DNA of 38,459 bases from a virus (taxonomy: Duplodnaviria; Heunggongvirae; Uroviricota; Caudoviricetes): positions 1 through 38,459 of IMG/VR virus record IMGVR_UViG_2896607866_000012. The stretch is one strand, 5' to 3'. Position 1 is the first letter of the stretch. Every line of letters starts with the position of its first letter. The notes under the pieces are model-generated. The model worked only from the letters and a program-made list of their open reading frames with translations. It was not told where the DNA came from and made no database searches. Position numbers and translations under genes: made by a program. Below are positions 24,244 through 35,723 of this stretch, piece by piece.

Positions 24244-24893
24244 GCCGCCATCTCCCTGACCAGTTTTTCCGCCTGCTGGCGAACCTGCGCCAGAAAGGCC
24301 TCACCACATGCCTCAAGTTCATCGCGCCCGATGTAGCTGATTGCCGGTCCCTTCCAGGTCTTGTCGAAAACAGCAATAGCACCAGCGAAGAAAGCGCCTG
24401 TCGGCACCTGCTTCTCGTCCTTCGGGATAAACCAGGCTGGCAGTTCAAAACCAATACGCCCGCGAATAAAAGCAATATGGTCTGCATCTTCCGGCCACCA
24501 AACTTCGCTGGTGGCAGCTTTGATCAGGAAAACATAGCGCCCACCTTTATCACGCATGGCACTGGCATGTTTCATGATGTAACGCATGCCGGTGATGTAT
24601 TGCCCCTCATGCTGACTGGCGCGGCTGTACGGGGGATTACCAAAGGCAGCACCTTTAAGCTCCGCAAGACGTTCTGACCAGTCATGCGCCAGCGCGTTGT
24701 CTTCCGCAGTGTAATAAGCGGCACATTTGGCGTTATCACCATCAGTAAACAGATCCAGAACAAACGGGCCAAACAGGGTGTTAATTCCCAAGAAAATGTT
24801 GTCCGGCGTGCGCCACTGATCGCCCACTTCCTTCAGTTCATGGGCTGGTTTGTTCCGCAGCTCCACTAGCGCCTGGCAATATTTATTACTCAT
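24240..24893 (-). CDS. phage DNA N6-adenine methyltransferase (Dam-like)
   Basis: NPPY motif; ATG at 24893 overlaps upstream stop (TAATG); track start 24926 is GTG. Confidence 0.8.
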   Translation of the reverse strand: MSNKYCQALVELRNKPAHELKEVGDQWRTPDNIFLGINTLFGPFVLDLFTDGDNAKCAAYYTAEDNALAHDWSERLAELKGAAFGNPPYSRASQHEGQYITGMRYIMKHASAMRDKGGRYVFLIKAATSEVWWPEDADHIAFIRGRIGFELPAWFIPKDEKQVPTGAFFAGAIAVFDKTWKGPAISYIGRDELEACGEAFLAQVRQQAEKLVREMAA

Positions 24894-25387
24894 TAAGCCC
24901 CCACGTAATTCCCTGACAGATACCACTCTTCACCCGATGCAGCGCGCTTGCTGCTTTTCCGTAAGCACCGCTCACGATGCGCCAGAAAATTGTTTCGTTC
25001 TGGCTGGGAGTGGCTTTCACGGAATGCCTCCATCCACACCGTTGCAGCTCGACGGAATAAGCCCCTGGACTCCAGTTCTTCAGCCTGGCGGGTCAGGCAC
25101 AAAATCACCCGGGGGTCGTTAGTGCCGACATAGAAATTGCGCACAGGTCTGGTTTCACGAACAGATTGTGGTTCCGGCTCCTGCGCTCTCTCAGTCAGGC
25201 GCGGGAAATGTCTGCGTGTATCTCCTTCACAACGGTGAGCCACACGCCCACTCTGACGTAACTTGCTTGCTGACTGCAGAACGCGCTGCCGTGAGTAACC
25301 AGCAAAAGCATCCGCAATGTCTCCGGAAGTACACCCCGGATGGGCTTCAATGAATTTCTGAACTTCATTCAAAAGACTCATAATCAC
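24893..25387 (-). CDS. hypothetical protein
   Basis: 164 aa basic ORF downstream of the replication gene; no confident family. Confidence 0.3.
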   Translation of the reverse strand: MIMSLLNEVQKFIEAHPGCTSGDIADAFAGYSRQRVLQSASKLRQSGRVAHRCEGDTRRHFPRLTERAQEPEPQSVRETRPVRNFYVGTNDPRVILCLTRQAEELESRGLFRRAATVWMEAFRESHSQPERNNFLAHRERCLRKSSKRAASGEEWYLSGNYVGA

Positions 25388-26214
25388 CCCCTGAATCCTG
25401 CCGGGATCTGGCTGTAGTCCACGTTGTCGTAACTGGCTTTGAAGTACGGGTCCTCGCGTCTGGCTGCAGATACTGCAGGAACTTCCCAGGATTCTTCGAA
25501 ATGACGATCCGGACCAAAGAACGTGACAGCCTGTTTCACAAATTGTGTGCCGCTGTTACCCATCGCAGATACCCAGCCCGCGTAGCGTTTCACACCTTCC
25601 AGCATGGTTTCGGGGTTTACCCCCTCATTCAAACGGGCTTTCCAGGCTTTGAAGGCTGCAGATTTTGAATTGCCACCAGCACGTTTGGGATAGGCCAGCC
25701 ATGCCTGCTCAAACTCCGGAGAGTATTCCGGTCGGTTTGAACGAACTCGCACAGACTCATCAGCAGATGCACCAACAGCTATTGGGTCATTGACTGGTTC
25801 TTTGACTGGTTCTTTGACTGGTTCAAAAGAGTGACTGGTTCTGGGTGAATCTCCTGCACTACCCCCTGGTGCAACTCCTGCACTACCTGGTGAATTTGCT
25901 GCACCAGATAGTGAATTATTTGCACTACCCCCTAGTGAATCTCCTGCACCATCAAGATGAAGGAGATAGATATTACTTGAGTTACCTTTTTCACCTTTCC
26001 GGGTGACTTTTTTTACCAGCCCGGACTCACAAAGGGCCGCAATATGATTCATCACAGAACGTTTGCTAATCTCGCACTGGTCAGCAATATGCTGGTAGCT
26101 GGGCCAGCACTCACCCTGATCGCTGGCATTATCAGCCAGCTTGATCAGAACCAGTTTTCGCAATGGATTACCCACTCGAATTTTCATCGCTTTAACCATC
26201 AGCTCCATACTCAT
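25384..26214 (-). CDS. replication initiator-like protein with N-terminal HTH (lambda O-like architecture)
   Basis: 276 aa; N-terminal winged-helix/HTH, central low-complexity linker encoded by tandem DNA repeats, conserved C-terminal domain; start overlaps upstream stop (ATGA). Confidence 0.55.
   Translation of the reverse strand: MSMELMVKAMKIRVGNPLRKLVLIKLADNASDQGECWPSYQHIADQCEISKRSVMNHIAALCESGLVKKVTRKGEKGNSSNIYLLHLDGAGDSLGGSANNSLSGAANSPGSAGVAPGGSAGDSPRTSHSFEPVKEPVKEPVNDPIAVGASADESVRVRSNRPEYSPEFEQAWLAYPKRAGGNSKSAAFKAWKARLNEGVNPETMLEGVKRYAGWVSAMGNSGTQFVKQAVTFFGPDRHFEESWEVPAVSAARREDPYFKASYDNVDYSQIPAGFRG
25791..25950. repeat. iteron-like tandem repeats inside replication gene (candidate ori)
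   Basis: TGACTGGTTCTT x3 plus one degenerate copy (25791..25842), then four or five 21-24 bp repeats of (T)CTCCTGCACTACC(CC)CTGGTGAA (25848..25950). Confidence 0.45.
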
Positions 26215-26447
26215 GCTGCACCTCCGAGATGCTTCATGTTTTTTCCGGAGCGAAAGGCTATAAGCGGCATACTGACGCGGTAATTACGGCCCAGCGGTTC
26301 ACAAACCACCTTCTGACATTCACGGTCAACCAGGCTAACACATAGAACATGCCCTGCAGGCGTGGTGTACCACTGCCCAACTGTAGGAATTGATATTTTT
26401 TTACGCTGAAGCAAACGGCAAATATTGAGGATCAACGGATTAAGCAT
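26211..26447 (-). CDS. hypothetical protein
   Basis: 78 aa ORF translationally coupled between flanking genes. Confidence 0.3.
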   Translation of the reverse strand: MLNPLILNICRLLQRKKISIPTVGQWYTTPAGHVLCVSLVDRECQKVVCEPLGRNYRVSMPLIAFRSGKNMKHLGGAA

Positions 26448-27276
26448 GACGATGCCCTCCGCTGATATTCAGGAGACGGTGAATATGAAAATTAGCCTTA
26501 TCCGCCAAACGGATACGTTCAGCCTGCAAGTTAAGAAGGGTTTCTACCAGAACCTGATGCGCCTGCGGATCCGAAAGAGTTACCTTGCGCAGAGCACGTA
26601 GTGCAGTTGTTACATAACTGAGTTTATGTAAGTCTTCATCATTCAGACGAGTGAGGGCTGGGACAGTAGCCATGATGGCAGCCTCCGATAACAGTGAATT
26701 ACCTTCACCACCGGAAACGCCAATTTCGCTGGTGGTGAACTGAACGGGGTTGGCGTAACCGGCGTTATCGGAAACCGGCGCACCTTTCAGTGCCCCCGTC
26801 CAGCCCACCATAATTTGGGTGTGCGCAGACGCAGACGATAAAAAAGACGCTGGCGCGTCATATATCGCCGATAACATTTCCAGGACGCCAATCCCGGCAC
26901 CCGCTTTATAAGGTGCCTGAACAGTGTAACGTCCCGGAATGGCAGAATCAATGTGCTGGTGGTCCTTCACACTCAACAAAATCACGCCTGAATTTCCACA
27001 AAGGACTAAAGCACTCATGCGGGTAGTCTTTGCGAAGATAGATAACGCGCTGTGTTTCTGGCTCCCAACGAATAACATGGACATAAAGCCCTCTTCCGTC
27101 ACGAAACCAGCGGTTAAGTTCCTGCACAACTCGCCCCCCACAGTCAGGTAAAGTTCTCTGTGGTTACTTACAGCCAGGTGATTTGGTAATCTGCATTCAT
27201 GCCGTAACAACAGGTGTTCAGCGACACTGACCACCAGCTGTTGCGACAAACGGTTATTTGCCGTTAAACTGTTCAT
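26440..27276 (-). CDS. hypothetical protein, 278 aa
   Basis: ORF in early-right operon between CII-like and replication genes; no recognised motif. Confidence 0.35.
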   Translation of the reverse strand: MNSLTANNRLSQQLVVSVAEHLLLRHECRLPNHLAVSNHRELYLTVGGELCRNLTAGFVTEEGFMSMLFVGSQKHSALSIFAKTTRMSALVLCGNSGVILLSVKDHQHIDSAIPGRYTVQAPYKAGAGIGVLEMLSAIYDAPASFLSSASAHTQIMVGWTGALKGAPVSDNAGYANPVQFTTSEIGVSGGEGNSLLSEAAIMATVPALTRLNDEDLHKLSYVTTALRALRKVTLSDPQAHQVLVETLLNLQAERIRLADKANFHIHRLLNISGGHRHA

Positions 27277-27836
27277 GCGTTAGTTTCTCCACAGACACAA
27301 AACGCCACGACGCCCGTAGCTGCACACTCGCGGGCGTCACTCTTTTCTGGAGCGCAAAAGATTTTGTAGACCAGTGCTGCATGCTCCTGGAGCTTCGAAA
27401 TTGACAGATACAACTCATCATTAATTGCTGTCTGCTCGTGTGGCTCCACGACCCCATCTTCGATTGCCGAACGAATCTGCTTTGAGTAATTCCCGATCTG
27501 TTCGATGACTTCCAGCAGGCGCTGGTTTATATCGGCGTTCTCTACTTCCTCAATTTCAGGAAGCGATACGAACACCCCACCAGCAGACTGTGCGACAGCA
27601 TCCGCAATGTAGTGAGTGCCAGCCGCGCGCTGTAAAACCATTGCCCATCCCAGCGGGAAAATCTGATCGCCATCGGCACGAAGGCGGTTAAATAATGCGT
27701 TCTCTGTTACATCCAGCCAGTCAGCTGCTTCAGCGTAACCACCCGGCAACGCTGCGATAGTTTTTCTGACAGCTTTCACGTACCACTCAGGCTGTTTTTC
27801 TACTTTCCAGTGATACTTACCCACGGTTAGCCTCAT
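27273..27836 (-). CDS. CII-like regulatory protein (CP76/YdaT-like)
   Basis: 187 aa ORF immediately downstream of cro-like gene; family from memory. Confidence 0.45.
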   Translation of the reverse strand: MRLTVGKYHWKVEKQPEWYVKAVRKTIAALPGGYAEAADWLDVTENALFNRLRADGDQIFPLGWAMVLQRAAGTHYIADAVAQSAGGVFVSLPEIEEVENADINQRLLEVIEQIGNYSKQIRSAIEDGVVEPHEQTAINDELYLSISKLQEHAALVYKIFCAPEKSDARECAATGVVAFCVCGETNA

Positions 27837-27867: not shown

Positions 27868-28068
27868 TTAATCTTTCGGATAGATATCCGGTCTTAAGTC
27901 AGATTTCGTAATTGCACCTGACGTGCATTGCTCAAGTTTTTTCGCCAGCACAAAACTGGCTTTTTTATAACCATTGAAAACCAGCCGTAAGTAGCCAGGT
28001 GTTGAGCCAACTTTTCCGGCCAACTCGCCCTGCTGTTCTTTGGTTAAAGAGTCCCAATACGCTTTCAT
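27868..28068 (-). CDS. Cro-like HTH regulator (YdaS-like)
   Basis: 66 aa from ATG 28068 with GGGGG SD upstream; divergent from CI; the longer 101 aa track ORF extends into the operator region. Confidence 0.55.
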   Translation of the reverse strand: MKAYWDSLTKEQQGELAGKVGSTPGYLRLVFNGYKKASFVLAKKLEQCTSGAITKSDLRPDIYPKD

Positions 28069-28073
28069 ACAAT

Positions 28074-28142
28074 ATGTACCCCCGGTATACATATTACATG
28101 ATTGAAATGAACCTTCAAGATACTTGTACCTTATCGGTACAA
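28074..28142. promoter_or_regulatory. immunity-region operators and PR promoter
   Basis: Perfect palindrome TTGTACC-N5-GGTACAA at 28124..28142; ATGTA-N9-TACAT at 28074..28092; minus-strand -35 TTGAAG (28113..28118) and -10 TAATAT (28091..28096), 16 bp spacer. Confidence 0.5.
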
Positions 28143-28158
28143 AGGTTTTAATTTCGTT

Positions 28159-28833
28159 ATGAAAACAATCCATGACATCCGGCGGTCTAACGCCAGAAAA
28201 CTGAGAGATGGTGTTGGCGGAAATTCATCCTTTGCCACCATGATTGATCGCGAGCCAACCCAAACCAGCAGGTTTATGGGGGATGGCGCTACTAAAAATA
28301 TCGGTGACAGCATGGCACGGCACATCGAAAAATGTTTCGACCTGCCTGTCGGATGGCTCGATCAAGAACACCAGACAACGAACATCACAAAAAAACCTGA
28401 TGTTTCAATCACTAATAAACAAATCACATTAGTCCCTATCATATCATGGGTACAGGCCGGAGCATGGAAAGAAGTTGGATATTCTGAGGTTGATTTGAGC
28501 ACAGCAGAAACGTATCCCTGCCCTGTACCCTGTGGGGAAATGACTTATATCTTGCGGGTGATAGGTGATTCAATGATTGATGAGTACCGCCCGGGAGACA
28601 TGATTTTTGTCGATCCTGAAGTACCTGCCTGCCACGGTGACGACGTTATTGCATTGATGCACGATACAGGTGAAACCACCTTCAAAAGGTTGATAGAAGA
28701 TGGGACACAGCGTTATCTCAAAGCGTTAAACCCAAACTGGCCTGAGCCTTACATTAAGATCAACGGTAATTGCTCTATAATTGGAACTGTGATTTTCTCA
28801 GGAAAACCAAGAAGATACAAAATCAAAGCCTAA
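28159..28833 (+). CDS. CI-like repressor with S24 (LexA/UmuD-type) peptidase domain
   Basis: 224 aa; N-terminal DNA-binding region, C-terminal GDSM...K motifs; divergent to cro-like gene. Confidence 0.85.
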   Translation: MKTIHDIRRSNARKLRDGVGGNSSFATMIDREPTQTSRFMGDGATKNIGDSMARHIEKCFDLPVGWLDQEHQTTNITKKPDVSITNKQITLVPIISWVQAGAWKEVGYSEVDLSTAETYPCPVPCGEMTYILRVIGDSMIDEYRPGDMIFVDPEVPACHGDDVIALMHDTGETTFKRLIEDGTQRYLKALNPNWPEPYIKINGNCSIIGTVIFSGKPRRYKIKA

Positions 28834-28845
28834 TCAATGTTTATG

Positions 28846-28868
28846 AACCTGCTTCGGCAGGTTTTTTT
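28846..28868 (+). terminator. rho-independent terminator after repressor gene
   Basis: AACCTGC-TTCG-GCAGGTT followed by T7 run. Confidence 0.65.
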
Positions 28869-28872
28869 ATAC

Positions 28873-28907
28873 TTGACAATGTACCCATGAGATACATAAT
28901 GTACCCA
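28873..28907 (+). promoter_or_regulatory. PL-like early-left promoter with operator repeats
   Basis: TTGACA (28873..28878), 16 bp spacer, CATAAT (28895..28900); two ATGTACCCA direct repeats at 28879..28887 and 28899..28907. Confidence 0.5.
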
Positions 28908-29026
28908 AGAGAAACAACAAACAGGCAGGACGCCCACGAAGTAGCCGCCTGGGGCATATGAAGTCCAGGATGATTCGTTGAGTCATGTTGTGCCACTAGG
29001 TACTCATGTTAAAGCAGGTGTATGAA

Positions 29027-29421: not shown

Positions 29422-30590
<1,169 letters not shown>

Positions 30591-30717
30591 CCACTTCAAT
30601 CATGTTGAAAGCCGATTCGTAGAACTGTTTTTGCTGAGTGTCGCTGAGACAGGAAAAGAGCGACGTTACGATGATTTTATTAATTGCATTATCAAGTTCT
30701 TTTTCATCAAAAGTCAT

Positions 30718-31154
30718 TTGATTTTCCTTTTATGTATACGGGCTTAAAAGGATACCACCGAGCCTGAAGTGGTGAAAAGACAGGCACATAACAGCTAAGT
30801 ATTTTCAACCAAAGAGAATCCTTAGCGTTGTGGTGAATGCGGCTCAGCGCACGCGGGTTAAGGTTGAGGCTGACAGTCGACCTTCTGTGGATACCCACCC
30901 GTCTGGTGTGCAACCTTCGCCAGGCACCGGGAGGCACCCGGCACCACAACTTTATGCTGTGTGTAGTCCTGGCGGTACCAGTTTGTACCCTTGCTTCCGG
31001 CTGGTACCGTCCTTTTTACAAAACAGAGAAGAGCATCACCGGACGACGGGCTCATAACCCAATCCATCCGGGCGGCTGCCACCGCAGGTGTTCTTCTCTG
31101 TTTTGTGGAGAAACTAATCGGCCTTGCAGGGTCGATATGATGAGGAGCAGCAAA
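30718..31154 (+). other. GC-rich structured non-coding block (candidate regulatory RNA)
   Basis: No credible ORF; nested inverted repeats including a 15/16 bp stem (31018..31033 with 31091..31106) and CGGTACCAG / CTGGTACCG (30973..30981 / 31001..31009). Strand assigned by operon direction only. Confidence 0.3.
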
Positions 31155-31256
31155 ATGGCTAGCGAACGCAGTACTGATGTGCAGGCATTTATCGGGGAGC
31201 TGGACGGCGGCGTATTTGAAACCAAAATCGGCGCAGTTCTCGGTAATGACTCCAAC

Positions 31257-31760
31257 TTACTGATAGTGTTTTATGTTCAGATAATGCCCGATGACCTTGT
31301 CATGCAGCTCCACCGATTTTGAGAACGACAGTGACTTCCGTCCCAGCCTTGCCAGATGTTGTCTCAGATTCAGATTATGTCGCTCAATGCGCTGAGTGTA
31401 ACGCTTGCTGATAACGTGCAGCTTTCCCTTCAGGCGTGATTCATACAGCGGCCAGCCATCCGTCATCCATACCACGACCTCAAAGGCCGACAGCAGGCTC
31501 AGAAGACGCTCCAGTGTGGCCAGAGTGCGTTCACCGAAGACGTGCGCCACAACCGTCCTCCGTATCCTGTCATACGCGTAAAACAGCCAGCGCTGACGTG
31601 ATTTAGCACCGACGTAGCCCCAATGTTCGTCCATTTCAGCGCAGACAATCACATCACTGCCCGGTTGTATGCGCGAGGTTACCGACTGCGGCCTGAGTTT
31701 TTTAAGTGACGTAAAACCGTGTTGAGGCCAACGCCCATAATGCGTGCACTGGCGCGACAT
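31257..31760 (-). CDS. insB: IS1 InsB frame (InsAB' transposase by frameshift)
   Basis: 167 aa ORF ending ...[10 protein letters not shown], 15 nt from IS end. Confidence 0.85.
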
Positions 31761-31954
31761 CCGACGCCATTCATGGCCATATCAATGATTTTCTGGTGCG
31801 TACCGGGCTGAGAGGCGGTGTAAGTGAACTGTAGTTGCCATGTTTTACGGCAATGAGAGCAGAGATAGCGCTGATGTCCGGCAGTGCTTTTGCCGTTACG
31901 CACCACGCCTTCAGTAGCGGAGCAGGAAGGACATCTGATGGAAATGGAAGCCAC
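31679..31954 (-). CDS. insA: IS1 InsA
   Basis: 91 aa [23 protein letters not shown]...; starts 56 nt from IS end. Confidence 0.9.
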
Positions 31955-32358
31955 GCAAGCACCTTAAAATCACCATCATACACTAAATCAGTAAGTTGGC
32001 AGCATTACCCAGTTCTCAGTGAAGTCGCTTCCGGTGTGATGAACACGAAAACCAAAGGTAAGGTCTCACTCAACCTGGAAATCGAACCATTTGATGAGAA
32101 CCGTGTGAAAATCAAACACAAACTCTCATATGTTCGCCCGACTAACCGTGGGAAAATTTCCGAAGAAGACACCACCGAAACGCCGATGTATGTCAATCGC
32201 GGTGGTCGCCTGACTATTCTGCAGGAAGACCAGGGACAATTACTGACTCTTGCCGGTGAGCCTGACGGAAAACTCCGCGCAGCAGGTCATTAATATCGTT
32301 CTTAATTAACTGATTATTTATCTCATCACTGAATATCTTAATATAGTGAGGACTTATT

Positions 32359-33006
32359 ATGTCTCAGTACTTAGACGCAACCGCAATTAATCAAATCCAT
32401 GCCCTTATTTCTGCTCAGGGTGTTAATGAAATTATCAGTAAGATTGGTGCCGATGCTGTGGCATTGCCTGAGAATTTCCGCATTCATGATCTGGAAAAAT
32501 TTAATTTAAATCGCTTCCGTTTCCGTGGTGCGCTTTCCACTGCCAGCATCGATGACTTTACCCGTTATTCTAAAGATCTTGCAGATGAAGGCACCCGCTG
32601 CTTTATCGATGCTGATAATATGCGTGCCGTCAGTGTGCTTAACCTGGGTACTATTGATGAACCAGGTCACGCAGATAACACCGCCACTCTCAAACTGAAA
32701 AAGACAGCACCGTTCTCTGCCCTGTTGTCTGTTAACGGCGAGCGTAACTCCCAGAAATCACTGGCAGAATGGATTGAAGACTGGGCCGACTACCTTGTGG
32801 GCTTTGATGCTAATGGTGACGCCATTCAGGCAACAAAAGCGGCTGCGGCTATCCGTAAAATCACGATTGAAGCAAACCAGACCGCTGATTTTGAAGATAA
32901 TGACTTCAGCGGCAAACGCTCCCTGATGGAATCTGTCGAAGCGAAGACCAAAGACATTATGCCAGTGGCATTTGAATTTAAATGCGTTCCGTTTGAAGGT
33001 CTGTAA
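32359..33006 (+). pseudogene. yfdQ: yfdQ-like (DUF2303) gene, 3' end displaced by IS66-family insertion
   Basis: 215 codons then a stop supplied by the IS terminus (gTAAg); the remaining 59 codons resume in frame at 35765 after the 8 bp repeat, reconstructing 274 aa. Confidence 0.6.
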
Positions 33007-33084
33007 GCGCCCCATCAGCGACGTCTTGTGAAAATTGTCCTGTCTGGCAACAATCGCGCCCATCTATATTGATGGACACGAACG

Positions 33085-33759
33085 ATGAATTCCCAGACAA
33101 CAAAAGATATTCCCTGCTTCCGTTCTTATTTGCCTGATGCCCTGCGTTTAAGATTTGAAGATAAACTGACCATCCGGGCCATCGCTCAGCGTCTGGGTCT
33201 CAGTCATTCCACAATACATACGCTTTTTCAGCGATTTCTTGCATCCGGTATCGCATGGCCATTGCCCGATTCAGTTTCATTCGCTCAACTTGACGCCATC
33301 CTTTATGCCAACAGAAAGAAGGAATTAACAGAGCCTCAAATCAGAGAAGGCTCATGGCGAAAAGAACGGCGAACCAGCTATAGCCGTGAATTTAAGGTCC
33401 GTCTGGCTAAGCAGGCGTTACAGCCTGGGGCTGTTGTTGCCCGGATCGCCAGAGAACACGATATCAATAATAACCTGCTGTTTAAATGGAAAAGCCAGTA
33501 CGAGGACGGCTTACTGAGCGATGATGACATACAGGAATGCATGCCTGTCCCGGTGGCTCTGACTGATACGCCGGAGCCGACCAGACCAGTTACAAATCCC
33601 TTCTGGCGTAACAAGCATGATGAGCGCCCTGAGGGGGCTCCCGGAAACGTCCCACGGTGCGAGCTGCATCTTAAATCAGGTGTGGTAAAACTGTTTGACC
33701 CTCTCACTCCGGAACTGTTACGGGCGCTAATCCGCGAAATGAAAGGGGGTATCCGATGA
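33085..33759 (+). CDS. IS66-family TnpA-like accessory protein
   Basis: C-terminal half shows the IS66 Orf1 pattern (YSREFKVRLAKQALQPGAVVARIAREHDINNNLLFKWKSQYEDG); N-terminal extension, so true start uncertain. Confidence 0.55.
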   Translation: MNSQTTKDIPCFRSYLPDALRLRFEDKLTIRAIAQRLGLSHSTIHTLFQRFLASGIAWPLPDSVSFAQLDAILYANRKKELTEPQIREGSWRKERRTSYSREFKVRLAKQALQPGAVVARIAREHDINNNLLFKWKSQYEDGLLSDDDIQECMPVPVALTDTPEPTRPVTNPFWRNKHDERPEGAPGNVPRCELHLKSGVVKLFDPLTPELLRALIREMKGGIR

Positions 33760-34103
33760 TAACGCTGCCGACCGGTACCAAAATCTGGATCATCGCTGGC
33801 ATCACAGATATGCGTTGTGGCTTCAATGGCCTGGCTTCGAAGGTGCAGAACACGCTGAAAGATGACCCGTTCTCCGGGCATATCTTCGTCTTCCGGGGCC
33901 GCAGTGGCAAAATGGTGAAAATACTGTGGGCCGATCGTGACGGGTTATGCCTGTTCGCCAAACGCCTGGAACGGGGCCGCTTCGTCTGGCCGGTGACCCG
34001 GGAAGGGAAAGTGCACCTGACGCCAGCTCAGTTATCCATGCTACTGGAGGGGATCGCGTGGCAACATCCCAAACGGACAGAACGGCCTGGCATCCGGATA
34101 TAA
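33756..34103 (+). CDS. IS66-family TnpB (Orf2)
   Basis: 115 aa; start overlaps tnpA stop (ATGA). Confidence 0.8.
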   Translation: MITLPTGTKIWIIAGITDMRCGFNGLASKVQNTLKDDPFSGHIFVFRGRSGKMVKILWADRDGLCLFAKRLERGRFVWPVTREGKVHLTPAQLSMLLEGIAWQHPKRTERPGIRI

Positions 34104-34122
34104 CCCGTGATAAAACAAGGGA

Positions 34123-35723
34123 ATGAACAATGAACTCCCCGATGATATTGAGCTGCTTAAAGCCATGTTGCGTAAGCAACAGAGTCGGCTTCGACAGTAT
34201 GCCTGTCAGGTCGCGGGCTATGAGCAGGAAATTGAACGGCTGAAAGCGCAACTCGACAGGTTGCGTCGTATGTTGTTCGGCCAGAGTTCAGAGAAAAAGC
34301 GTCATAAGCTTGAAAATCAGATCCGACAGGCAGAAAAACGACTGTCGGAACTGGAAAACCGGCTGAACACAGCCAGAAATCTTCTGGAAGATGCATCGTC
34401 AGTCACAGATTCACCTGACACCAGTCCCCCGTCAGAAAACCCGATCGCCAGTAAGCCTGAATCCCCGGGACGAAAATCTTCACGAAAACCGCTGCCGGCA
34501 GAACTTCCCCGGGAGACACATCGCCTTCTGCCTGCTGAAACCAGTTGCCCGGCCTGTGGAGGTGTTCTGAAAGAAATGGGGGAAACAATCTCAGAGCAAC
34601 TGGATATCATTAATACCGCCTTTAAAGTTATCGAAACCATACGTCCCAAACTGGCCTGTAGCCGGTGTGATGTCATCGTTCAGGCACCACTTCCCCTAAA
34701 CCGATCGAACGCGGTTATGCCAGTGCAGGGTTACTTGCACGGATCCTGGTCAGCAAATATATGGAACATATCCCTTTATATCGCCAGTCAGAAATATACG
34801 CGCGACAGGGCGTGGAGCTGAGCCGTAATACCATGGTGCGCTGGGTATCAGAAATGGCAGACAAACTCCGTCCTCTGTATATAGCGCTGAATGACTATGT
34901 TCTGGAGGCAGGAAAGGTGCACGCAGATGACACTCCGGTGAAAGTACTGGCCCCGGGGAACGGAAAGACGAAAACGGGTCGTCTGTGGGTATACGTCAGG
35001 GATGATCGTAATGCGGGTTCATCCCTGCCGGCAGCCGTCTGGTTCGCGTATTCGGCAGATCGCAAAGGAGAACATCCGCAGCTCCACCTGGCAAAGTATC
35101 AGGGCGTACTGCAGGCTGATGCCTATGCAGGTTATAACGTACTGTACGAAACGGGCCGGGTGAAGGAAGCCGGGTGCCTGGCCCACGCCCGCCGAAAAAT
35201 CCATGACGAGGATGTGCGCCGTCCGACAGAAATGACTCAGGAAGCGCTCAGACGGATAGCAGAGTTATACGACATAGAAGCGGAGATACGTGGCAGTCCG
35301 GCAGAGGAACGGCTTGCAGTCAGAAAAGCCAGAAGCGTCCAGTTGATGCAGTCGTTGTACGACTGGATACAGTTGCAGAGGAAAACGCTGTCGAAACATG
35401 CGGAGATGGCGAAGGCGTTCGACTATATCCTGAATCACTGGAATGCGCTGAACGAGTTCTGTCGTGACGGCTGGGTGGAAATAGACAACAACATCGGTGA
35501 AAACGCGTTACGATCGGTGGCGGTTGGAAGAAAAAATTATCTCTTTTTCGGCTCAGACAAGGGAGGAGAAAGTGCGGCGATCATCTACAGTCTGCTGGTC
35601 ACCTGCAAACAGAACGAAGTGGAGCCGGAGGACTGGTTGCGCGAAGTGATCGAGAAGCTCAATGACTGGCCGTCGAACCAAGTGCATGAACTGCTGCCCT
35701 GGAACTTCTCGTCTGTAAAATAA
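34123..35723 (+). pseudogene. IS66-family transposase TnpC, frameshifted
   Basis: N-terminal zinc-finger part (34123..34821) and catalytic part (34761..35723) are in different frames; switch lies at C4 run 34693..34696. Confidence 0.7.

What the first reader, a model, noticed from the sequence alone, without database searches (positions are those of the whole stretch)
25791..25950. Two families of tandem repeats inside the replication initiator gene (candidate iteron origin)
TGACTGGTTCTT x3 plus one degenerate copy is followed by four or five 21-24 bp CTCCTGCACTACC(CC)CTGGTGAA-type repeats. On the coding strand they translate to a low-complexity linker (EPVKEPVKEPV..., GGSANNSLSGAANSPGSAGVAPGGSAGDSP) between the HTH N-domain and the conserved C-domain. 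Lambda O shows the same logic, with its origin iterons lying in the linker-coding region. No helicase-loader gene follows, so the replication module is unusual.
Basis: partly seen in the sequence, partly recalled or inferred. Interest (0 to 1): 0.45.

Follow-up and report, generated by a model that had tools for sequence, protein, structure and literature searches.

The report
Replication origin inside phage initiator gene
The repeats lie inside a prophage's replication-initiator gene and behave like DNA that is conserved for its own sake, most likely five initiator-binding sites plus an easily melted repeat block that together form the phage's replication origin, as in phage lambda but in an unrelated initiator family.

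Summary
Window 25791-25950 holds four exact TGACTGGTTC repeats and five 17-bp imperfect palindromes (GTGMA-N5-TKCAC) spaced 24/21/21/24 bp. They lie in the part of a 276-aa initiator gene (25384-26214, minus strand) that encodes a disordered linker.

Comparison with about 50 distant and about 80 close homologues shows selection on the DNA rather than on the peptide:
- Every homologue has 3-6 palindromes at 21-24 bp spacing, in fixed register with an almost invariant 30-bp element.
- The two arms co-vary and keep dyad symmetry.
- Four half-site classes map 1:1 onto four recognition-helix classes, while C-terminal domains are shuffled.
- Some units, and part of the invariant element, are read in other reading frames.
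- Codon choice in the element is fixed (Arg always AGA).
- In close relatives the repeats are the least variable third-codon positions of the gene.

Across the family the invariant element is usually the gene's least stable duplex. Relatives are followed by lambda-P-like, DnaC-like or primase-helicase genes. This E. coli/Salmonella clade has none.

Verdict: a lambda-style origin inside the initiator gene, in an HTH_36 family with no detectable similarity to lambda O. The support is comparative only; no experiment tests it. It is a new member of a known kind and of moderate interest.

The parts
25384..26214 (-). Replication initiator gene (276 aa): N-terminal winged-helix domain, disordered linker, C-terminal helical domain
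   Evidence: ORF list. Pfam HTH_36 1.8e-11 and phrog_270 'replication initiation protein' 3.4e-88. AlphaFold2 domain layout. The gene is 97-99% identical to those of SfV (orf39), mEp460, cdtI and Stx2c/Stx2a phages.
25951..26214 (-). Coding region of the winged-helix DNA-binding domain (aa 1-88). Aa 1-48 are nearly invariant in the family; aa 49-66 (recognition helix) are variable.
   Evidence: pLDDT 86-96 and Foldseek hits to winged-helix proteins, including the DnaD N-terminal domain 2v79. Mean pairwise identity is 87% for aa 1-48 and 50% for aa 49-66 in 38 non-redundant homologues.
25934..25950 (.). Iteron 1 (coding strand GGTGCAGGAGATTCACT), a 17-bp imperfect palindrome
25910..25926 (.). 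Iteron 2 (AGTGCAAATAATTCACT), 24 bp from iteron 1
25889..25905 (.). Iteron 3 (GGTGCAGCAAATTCACC), 21 bp from iteron 2
25868..25884 (.). Iteron 4 (AGTGCAGGAGTTGCACC), 21 bp from iteron 3
25844..25860 (.). Iteron 5 (AGTGCAGGAGATTCACC), 24 bp from iteron 4. It abuts the invariant element, in the same register in every homologue.
25814..25843 (-). Family-invariant 30-bp element (coding strand CAGAACCAGTCACTCTTTTGAACCAGTCAA), encoding RTSHSFEPV. It is the candidate DNA-unwinding element or origin core.
   Evidence: The element has 0-3 substitutions in most of about 50 homologues from seven or more genera. Codon choice is fixed. It is read in another frame in L042, L045, L047 and L048. It is the least stable 30-bp duplex window of the gene in 63-95% of 38 homologues.
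25791..25841 (-). Four direct repeats of GAACCAGTCA (plus-strand TGACTGGTTC at 25791-25800, 25803-25812, 25815-25824 and 25832-25841). The two copies nearest the iterons (25832-25841 and 25815-25824) belong to the invariant element. The other two vary in number.
   Evidence: exact x4, found only here. Copy number runs from 1 (P0116, P0123) to 5 (L061, L064) in close relatives.
25951..26010 (.). Second low-GC patch (37% GC), on the other side of the iterons, coding for the 'wing'. In this window it is the least stable part of the gene.
25471..25731 (-). C-terminal helical domain (aa 162-248), the presumed module that recruits a partner or host helicase
   Evidence: pLDDT 78-94. 45% identical to the C-terminus of a DUF1376/YdaU-family replication protein. 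In other genera it is paired with a downstream DnaC/IstB-like gene. No significant fold match.

Best explanation
Window 25791-25950 is the replication origin of this lambdoid prophage, embedded in the linker-coding part of its own initiator gene.

The proposed mechanism has four steps:
1. Dimers of the initiator's N-terminal winged-helix domain bind the five 17-bp dyad-symmetric iterons. These are spaced about two helical turns apart (inferred).
2. The resulting nucleoprotein complex, helped by rightward transcription through the gene, melts the adjacent, family-invariant GAACCAGTCA repeat element (inferred, and less certain).
3. The C-terminal domain brings in the replicative helicase. Relatives encode a lambda-P-like, DnaC-like or primase-helicase partner directly downstream (shown for the gene order; the interaction is inferred).
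4. This E. coli/Salmonella clade has lost that partner gene, so it presumably uses the host DnaB-DnaC complex directly (inferred).

What is shown is that the repeats are under selection as DNA, that they are dyad-symmetric, that they are phased, and that they co-vary with the recognition helix. Binding, unwinding and initiation at this site are inferred.
For: 1. Architecture. In 52 loci from Escherichia, Phytobacter, Leclercia, Enterobacter, Pseudomonas, Shewanella, Marinomonas, Xenorhabdus, Erwinia and others, the same position holds 3-6 units. Unit spacing is only 21, 22, 23 or 24 bp, apart from three cases of 33 bp. The last unit always abuts the invariant element.

2. Dyad symmetry kept by compensatory change. 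Arm pairs (1,15) and (2,14) are Watson-Crick in 97% and 92% of 139 distinct units, with two or three pair types each. None of 2000 column shuffles reaches these values.

3. Specificity coupling. Four recognition-helix classes map 1:1 onto four half-site classes, with 52 of 52 loci fitting (one by a close variant of the helix motif). Seven C-terminal domain clusters are shuffled among those classes. A separate scan seeded only with the DNA element found the N-terminal domain upstream in 112 of 113 viral contigs, and no pairing listed there breaks the mapping.

4. Constraint at the DNA level:
- 21 of 235 units are in a different reading frame, with spacing 23+22 bp instead of 21+24 bp.
- The peptide the repeats encode differs completely between classes (GGSAGDSP, VVQEIHQ, GAADNP, VGPEST, MPSDST).
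- Codon choice in the invariant element is fixed: mean share of the commonest codon is 0.92 against 0.58 in the N-terminal domain columns where the amino acid is conserved (p = 8.5e-5).
- Within the close clade, the fraction of variable third-codon positions is 11% in the iterons and 5.6% in the repeat element. It is 24% in the N-terminal domain, 42% in the non-repeat linker and 47% in the C-terminal domain.

5. Low-stability element. The invariant element is the least stable window of the gene across the family.

6. Context. Homologues sit in classical initiator-plus-loader modules, next to PF06992 lambda P, PF01695 DnaC/IstB or Toprim+DnaB_C genes.

7. Precedent. Lambda's annotated iterons are 18 bp, spaced 20/24/23 bp, lie inside gene O and are followed by an AT-rich tract (PMC7466680). 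Iterons lie within P22 and phage L gene 18 (PMC8022706).
Against: - There is no experimental evidence for binding, unwinding or initiation in this family. None turned up in the literature I could search.
- In this window the repeat element is only mildly AT-rich (43% GC against 50% for the gene). The gene's least stable patch lies on the other side of the iterons.
- There are no DnaA boxes, IHF sites or GATC sites in or next to the array.
- Iteron number ranges from 1 to 9 among near-identical prophage alleles, and the outer GAACCAGTCA copies vary freely. Some of these alleles may be defective.
- The helix-iteron association is confounded by physical adjacency.
- The shuffle control for arm co-variation does not remove phylogenetic relatedness.
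- Units were collected by similarity to the last unit of each locus, which could miss degenerate sites.
Confidence: 0.75

Rival explanations
1. The repeats are a low-complexity linker selected, or merely tolerated, at the protein level. They arose by slippage and have no function as DNA.
For: The region encodes a disordered segment. Copy number of both repeat types varies among close alleles. Most spacings are multiples of 3.
Against: The peptide is not conserved between classes, whereas the palindromic DNA architecture and phasing are. Units occur in different reading frames. Synonymous codons are fixed in the invariant element. The repeat-coding part is the least variable third-position DNA of the gene, while the neighbouring non-repeat linker is among the most variable. 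The arms co-vary to keep dyad symmetry.
Confidence: 0.04
2. The palindromes are real binding sites of the initiator, but they serve autoregulation, copy control or handcuffing. Replication itself starts elsewhere in the phage genome.
For: Sites for a DNA-binding protein inside its own gene could act as a transcriptional roadblock. In this window the clearest AT-rich patch is not the repeat block. One further matching palindrome lies about 500 bp upstream of the gene, at 26693-26709.
Against: No consistent additional sites occur within +/-3 kb in other loci. The array always abuts a conserved low-stability element. The layout matches the proven lambda origin. The modules in relatives are initiator-plus-loader pairs, for which an origin inside the gene is the known rule (PMC7466680; PMC8022706).
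Confidence: 0.12
3. The invariant 30-bp element is conserved mainly as a recombination junction (a 'linker sequence') that allows exchange of N-terminal and C-terminal modules between phages. It is not an unwinding element.
For: Module exchange does occur exactly there. P0164 and P0170 join an identical C-terminal half to other N-terminal domain and iteron classes. C-terminal clusters are shuffled among iteron classes.
Against: Recombination uses identity but does not by itself maintain it across genera with 40-65% GC. Codon fixation and the change of reading frame argue for direct selection. The fixed register with the last iteron, and the element being the stability minimum of the gene, fit an origin core. 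The two roles do not exclude each other.
Confidence: 0.07
4. The palindromes act as mRNA hairpins, for example by pausing translation or stabilising the transcript.
For: Compensatory arm changes would also preserve RNA stems.
Against: Folding 25780-25960 as RNA gives a z-score of only -1.2. Among non-complementary arm pairs, C/A and G/A dominate and G/T makes up only 20%. The stems are 3-6 bp. The 21-24 bp phasing and the coupling to the recognition helix have no explanation at the RNA level.
Confidence: 0.02

Closest known systems
Phage lambda origin (ori-lambda) inside gene O
   Same: Lambda has four annotated 18-bp sites (described as 19-bp imperfect inverted repeats) in tandem at 20-24 bp spacing. 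They lie in the middle of the initiator gene and are followed, in the direction of transcription, by an easily melted tract. The segment encodes a dispensable interdomain stretch, and iteron number varies between relatives: 4 in lambda and 6 in Stx phages, which adds 13 aa (PMC7466680).
   Different: The initiator has no detectable sequence similarity to lambda O (no PF04492 hit; hhalign probability 1%). The iteron sequences are unrelated. The flanking tract here is a sequence-invariant direct-repeat element and only mildly AT-rich, not a long A/T run. No P gene follows in this window.
Modular lambdoid initiators (lambda, phi80, 82, P22 gene 18, phage L gene 18)
   Same: The N-terminal half and the iterons are type-specific, the C-terminal half matches the helicase or loader partner, and the origin lies in the coding region (PMC8022706 for P22 and L; for phi80 and 82 this rests on my own recollection of Grosschedl & Hobom 1979 and Moore et al. 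1981, not checked here). The same modular pattern is seen here.
   Different: This is a different protein family (HTH_36). Here the junction element is conserved to the nucleotide across Pseudomonas, Shewanella, Xenorhabdus and the enterics.
Eru6-type replication region of Stx phages and the 'O' gene of phage Phi24B
   Same: The window's initiator gene is 97.5% identical to that of Stx2a_WGPS2, the Eru6 reference phage (PMC8951638). Phi24B 'O' has the same N-terminal domain (66% identity), three perfect GGGGCAGGAGCTGCCCC palindromes and the same invariant element.
   Different: Those papers type the regions by gene content and state that nothing is known about replication of Eru phages. They describe no origin or iterons (PMC8951638). 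Phi24B has a primase-helicase gene downstream; this window does not.
Bacillus phage SPP1 G38P and oriL; DnaD-type replisome organisers
   Same: An initiator whose N-terminal domain binds repeats that lie inside its own gene, next to an AT-rich region (own knowledge). The N-terminal domain here gives a sub-threshold match to the DnaD N-terminal domain (PF21984, 24.3 bits against a cut-off of 27; 2v79, Foldseek E about 0.03).
   Different: The similarity is at the level of fold only and is below the thresholds. The repeats and the partner genes are unrelated.
Iteron origins of theta-replicating plasmids (Rep_3/RepA type)
   Same: Tandem initiator-binding repeats at about 22-bp phasing next to an unwinding element.
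   Different: Plasmid iterons are usually direct repeats bound by monomers. They lie outside the rep gene and come with DnaA boxes. Here the units are dyad-symmetric, lie within the gene, and no DnaA box is present.

Membership tests
Lambda-type origin embedded in the initiator gene (architecture) | Three or more tandem ~17-19 bp imperfect inverted repeats spaced about two helical turns apart | tested here: met
   Five units spaced 24/21/21/24 bp, against 0.24 pattern matches expected by chance. The family-wide spacing is 21-24 bp. For comparison, lambda's are spaced 20/24/23 bp.
Lambda-type origin embedded in the initiator gene (architecture) | The repeats lie in the segment that codes for a non-essential or disordered interdomain stretch of the initiator | tested here: met
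   The repeats encode aa 89-141, and AlphaFold2 gives pLDDT about 30 for aa 91-161. Natural alleles with 1 to 9 units keep the reading frame.
Lambda-type origin embedded in the initiator gene (architecture) | An AT-rich or low-stability unwinding tract directly next to the iterons | tested here: inconclusive
   Across the family, the element downstream of the iterons is the least stable window of the gene in 63-95% of 38 homologues. In this window it is only 43% GC against 50% for the gene, and the 37% GC patch lies on the other flank.
Lambda-type origin embedded in the initiator gene (architecture) | The initiator binds the repeats, and replication starts there | not testable with these tools
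   Only indirect support: the recognition-helix class maps 1:1 onto the half-site class.
Lambda-type origin embedded in the initiator gene (architecture) | The initiator gene is followed by a gene for its helicase-loader or helicase partner | tested here: not met
   The window has none. Most distant homologues do have one: PF06992, PF01695 or Toprim+DnaB_C.
Lambda O protein family (Pfam PF04492 Phage_rep_O) | Sequence match to the family profile or to lambda O | tested here: not met
   No PF04492 hit at E <= 0.01. hhalign of the family alignment against lambda O gives probability 1%.
HTH_36 (PF13730) winged-helix phage initiators / phrog_270 | Profile match above the curated cut-off, and a winged-helix fold | tested here: met
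   HTH_36 scores 44.1 bits against a cut-off of 25. phrog_270 matches at 3.4e-88. The model is helix-turn-helix plus a beta hairpin, with winged-helix Foldseek hits.
Iteron plasmids (Rep_3 type) | Direct-repeat iterons outside the rep gene, with DnaA boxes | tested here: not met
   The units are dyad-symmetric and lie within the gene. There is no DnaA box within 25300-26300.

The most novel reading that the evidence does not exclude
The origin is written in two parts.

The first part is the set of type-specific palindromic iterons, read by the variable recognition helix.

The second part is a universal 30-bp core (CAGAACCAGTCACTCTTTTGAACCAGTCAA) that is recognised by its sequence rather than only by its AT content. 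The same core would also serve as the crossover point for swapping initiator modules.

In the E. coli/Salmonella clade the phage has dropped its own DnaC-like loader, and the C-terminal domain captures the host DnaB-DnaC complex directly.
Probability: 0.3. Interest if true: 0.55.

Novelty: new member of a known kind. Interest (0 to 1): 0.42.

Why it matters
This initiator family is very common. About 5,500 protein clusters match it, and 897 of 5,426 complete E. coli genomes carry a near-full-length copy. It is found in SfV, ST64B, cdtI, mEp460, Phi24B and the Eru6-type Stx phages. The recent literature says that nothing is known about how these phages replicate (PMC8951638).

A precise, testable origin map gives experimenters a minimal replicon to clone: five iterons plus an invariant core. 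It also gives a natural set of matched initiator-iteron specificities for studying incompatibility and phage-phage interference. Finally, it offers a way to ask how a phage without its own helicase loader takes over the host helicase, which bears on induction of Shiga-toxin prophages.

In kind it is an expected result, because it follows lambda's logic. Its value lies in the strength of the comparative evidence and in the unexpected nucleotide-level invariance of the junction element.

Tried and rejected
- RNA structure. Folding the array as RNA gives a z-score of -1.2, and the non-complementary arm pairs are mostly not wobble pairs.
- Host-factor sites. No DnaA box, IHF consensus or GATC lies in or next to the array.
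- Internal promoter or terminator. Nothing above what shuffles give.
- Auxiliary iteron sites elsewhere. One isolated match in the window (26693-26709), and nothing consistent in other loci.
- Homology to lambda O. None detectable.
- Small plasmids that use this initiator as their only Rep. The plasmid records that match are phage-sized circles of 38-48 kb or larger replicons, so they do not test autonomy.
- Literature. The SfV genome paper is not held, and Weigel & Seitz (2006) was not among the papers my searches returned. The motif strings appear in no relevant paper. An earlier prediction of this origin therefore cannot be excluded.
- First protein search. Searching with the C-terminal domain alone returned mostly fragments.
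Full report
**1. What is in the window**

The finding lies inside ORF 25384-26214 (minus strand, 276 aa). This is the fifth gene of a lambdoid early-right operon that runs divergently from a cI-type repressor gene (28159-28833, plus strand). The operon order is:
- cro-like gene (27868-28173)
- CII-like gene (27273-27836)
- Ash-family gene (26440-27276)
- a 78-aa ORF (26211-26447)
- the initiator
- PerC/YfdN-like gene, Dam methylase, a LexA-type DNA-binding protein, RusA, a KilA-like regulator, an HNH-like protein, Q, holin and endolysin.

The protein matches Pfam HTH_36 (aa 17-67, 1.8e-11) and phrog_270 'replication initiation protein' (3.4e-88). The same gene, at 97-99% nucleotide identity, is present in SfV (orf39), mEp460, cdtI, Stx2c phages and Stx2a_WGPS2, and at 88% in ST64B (sb42). 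Of 5,426 complete E. coli genomes, 897 carry a near-full-length copy.

**2. Checking the observation**

Tandem Repeats Finder reports both repeat families.
- TGACTGGTTC occurs exactly four times, only at 25791-25841.
- GTGMA-N5-TKCAC occurs six times against 0.24 expected. Five of these form an array at 25845-25949.

On the coding strand the array is five 17-bp imperfect palindromes: GGTGCAGGAGATTCACT, AGTGCAAATAATTCACT, GGTGCAGCAAATTCACC, AGTGCAGGAGTTGCACC and AGTGCAGGAGATTCACC. They are spaced 24, 21, 21 and 24 bp. They are followed at once by CAGAACCAGTCACTCTTTTGAACCAGTCAA and two more GAACCAGTCA copies.

AlphaFold2 gives a confident winged-helix domain (aa 1-90), a disordered stretch (aa 91-161, pLDDT about 30) and a helical C-terminal domain (aa 162-248). 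The fourth 12-bp copy is exact in its 10-bp core, and there are five long units.

**3. Peptide or DNA?**

This is the central question. I collected 56 loci from one genome per species and 80 close loci from viral contigs. The first 51 genome loci were analysed.

- **Architecture.** Every distant homologue with an intact gene has a short repeated peptide after the HTH domain, followed by 'PRTSHSFEPVNEP'. The genera include Phytobacter, Leclercia, Enterobacter, Pseudomonas, Shewanella, Marinomonas, Xenorhabdus, Erwinia, Microbulbifer and Wohlfahrtiimonas. The repeated peptide differs completely between groups: GGSAGDSP, VVQEIHQ, GGAADNP, VGPEST, MPSDST, PPSANVA, SAKSAP. At the DNA level, all of them have 3-6 units of 17 bp centred at the same distance from the invariant element. 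The spacings are 21 (85 cases), 22 (15), 23 (16), 24 (64) and 33 (3).

- **Reading frame.** Twenty-one of 235 units sit in another reading frame, giving spacings of 23+22 bp in place of 21+24 bp. The phasing of the DNA is kept while the translation changes. In L042, L045, L047 and L048 the sequence CCAGAACCAGTCAC is retained but read as HPEPVT instead of PRTSHS.

- **Synonymous sites in distant homologues.** In 38 non-redundant homologues the element's codons are essentially fixed: Arg is always AGA, Ser is AGT and TCT, Thr is ACC. This holds even in GC-rich Pseudomonas. The mean share of the commonest codon is 0.92, against 0.58 in the N-terminal domain columns where the amino acid is conserved (Mann-Whitney p = 8.5e-5).

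- **Synonymous sites in the close clade.** Among 54 distinct alleles, the fraction of variable third-codon positions differs sharply along the gene:

| Segment | Variable third positions |
|---|---|
| N-terminal domain | 24% |
| Iterons | 11% |
| GAACCAGTCA repeat block | 5.6% |
| Non-repeat part of the linker | 42% |
| C-terminal domain | 47% |

A linker constrained only as protein would show the opposite pattern.

**4. Dyad symmetry and specificity**

Over 139 distinct units, arm positions (1,15) and (2,14) are Watson-Crick complementary in 97% and 92% of units, each with two or three pair types. Positions (3,13), (4,12) and (5,11) reach 71%, 55% and 64%. None of 2000 column shuffles reaches any of these values.

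The half-sites fall into four classes:
- RGTG[C/A]A...T[G/T]CACY
- GGGGC...(C)CCC
- GTAGGC...GCCTAC/AGCAC
- RTGCC...GGCAC

These map one-to-one onto four classes of the predicted recognition helix: xRSV[M/I/V/Q], RSTVK, DRSTVR and [K/H]SxVR. All 52 loci fit, one of them by a close variant of the helix motif. By contrast, seven C-terminal domain clusters are shuffled among the iteron classes.

The first 48 residues are 87% identical pairwise, and residues 49-66 only 50%. A separate scan of viral contigs, seeded only with the 28-bp DNA element, found the N-terminal domain upstream in 112 of 113 usable hits, and none of the pairings listed there breaks the mapping.

Two caveats apply. The helix and the iterons are adjacent, so linkage contributes to the association. 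The shuffle control does not remove relatedness between sequences.

**5. An unwinding element?**

Averaged over the 38 homologues, the 30-bp windows that start 0-30 bp into the invariant element have 37-45% GC, against about 55% for the genes. They are among the least stable 10% of windows of the gene in 63-95% of loci for windows starting 0-25 bp in, falling to 42% at 30 bp.

In this E. coli copy the contrast is weaker: 43% GC against 50% for the gene. Its least stable patch is 25951-26010 (37% GC), on the other side of the iterons. I therefore rate 'iterons' as well supported, and 'the GAACCAGTCA block is the unwinding element' as plausible but less certain.

**6. Copy-number variation**

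Near-identical alleles carry 1, 2, 5, 7, 8 or 9 iterons. Phage cdtI has 8, through duplication of a three-unit block. They carry between one and five GAACCAGTCA copies. One allele (P0136) has lost the last iteron and the invariant element.

The changes are by whole units, as between lambda (4 iterons) and Stx phages (6 iterons) (PMC7466680). The one exception is that the outer GAACCAGTCA copies do look slippage-prone.

**7. Replication context**

In other genera, homologues are followed directly by one of the following:
- a lambda-P-family gene (PF06992)
- a DnaC/IstB-like ATPase gene (PF01695)
- a Toprim+DnaB_C primase-helicase gene
- a gene for an unknown 268-aa protein

Of the 16 loci whose C-terminal domain belongs to the window's cluster, 11 have the DnaC-like gene and one has a P-like gene. 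The window, cdtI, ST64B and Leclercia L002 have none, and a PerC-like gene occupies the position in the window, ST64B and L002. So the 'solo' state is real, and it is a derived loss. Use of host DnaC-DnaB by the C-terminal domain is an inference.

The same C-terminal domain is 45% identical to the C-terminus of a DUF1376/YdaU-family replication protein that sits next to a primase-helicase gene. It has no significant structural match.

**8. Comparison with what is known**

Lambda's annotated iterons are 18 bp, spaced 20/24/23 bp, lie inside gene O and are followed by an A/T-rich tract. They are imperfect inverted repeats (described as 19 bp) bound by O (PMC7466680). P22 and phage L gene 18 also contain their iterons (PMC8022706).

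The present initiator is not detectably homologous to lambda O. It works like lambda's origin, but it is not a member of the O family.

The window's initiator gene is the one found in the Eru6 reference Stx phage. The papers that define Eru types state that nothing is known about replication proteins of these phages, and they mention no iterons. Phi24B 'O' has three perfect palindromes and the same invariant element.

I found no description of these motifs in the searchable literature. The SfV genome paper is not held, and Weigel & Seitz (2006) did not turn up in my searches, so a prior prediction cannot be excluded.

**9. Verdict**

The feature is a new member of a known kind: an origin embedded in the initiator gene. 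Two points go beyond the expected:
- the nucleotide-level invariance of the 30-bp junction element across distant Gammaproteobacteria
- the clean one-to-one pairing of helix classes and iteron classes

Interest is moderate (0.42). Confidence that this is the origin is 0.75.

Noticed in passing
window 26693-26709: There is one more palindrome of the iteron type (AGTGAATTACCTTCACC). It lies inside the Ash-family gene, about 495 bp upstream of the initiator's start. It could be an auxiliary binding site or a chance match. No equivalent site recurs in distant loci.
   Followed up: partly
window 29718-35723: Several transposase ORFs (29718-30590, 33085-33759, 34123-34821, 34761-35723) occupy the region to the left of cI. 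The prophage's early-left arm appears to be disrupted by insertion sequences, so the prophage may be defective.
   Followed up: partly
window 28845-28920: Just after cI there is a terminator-like hairpin, then TTGACA and two copies of AATGTACCCA(t/a)GAGA(t/a)ACA (a 20-bp tandem repeat at 28878-28916). This looks like a promoter with repeated operator-like sites for the next gene.
   Followed up: no
window 25384-25387: The initiator's stop codon overlaps the start of the PerC/YfdN-like gene (24893-25387). That gene sits where relatives carry their helicase-loader gene.
   Followed up: partly
L142 (Phi24B, HM208303 12548-13324): The annotated 'O' gene of Stx phage Phi24B belongs to this family. 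It has three perfect GGGGCAGGAGCTGCCCC palindromes spaced 21 and 24 bp, then CAGAACCTATCACTCTTTTGAACCAGTCAA, and is followed by a primase-helicase gene annotated 'P'.
   Followed up: partly
proteins P0126, P0136, P0139, P0148-P0151: E. coli genomes hold decayed alleles of the initiator. Some are fused to PerC, Dam or RusA coding sequence. One has a deletion that removes the last iteron and the invariant element.
   Followed up: no
P0164 and P0170: These are natural chimeras. A C-terminal half nearly identical to the window's is joined to N-terminal domains and iterons of the RSTVK/GGGGC class and the KSAVR/RTGCC class. The junction lies in the invariant element, so that element is also where modules are exchanged.
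   Followed up: partly
L006-L011, L018, L029 (Pseudomonas): A conserved protein of about 268 aa with no Pfam match follows the initiators that carry the 'C3' C-terminal domain. It occupies the position of the loader gene and may be an undescribed partner protein.
   Followed up: no
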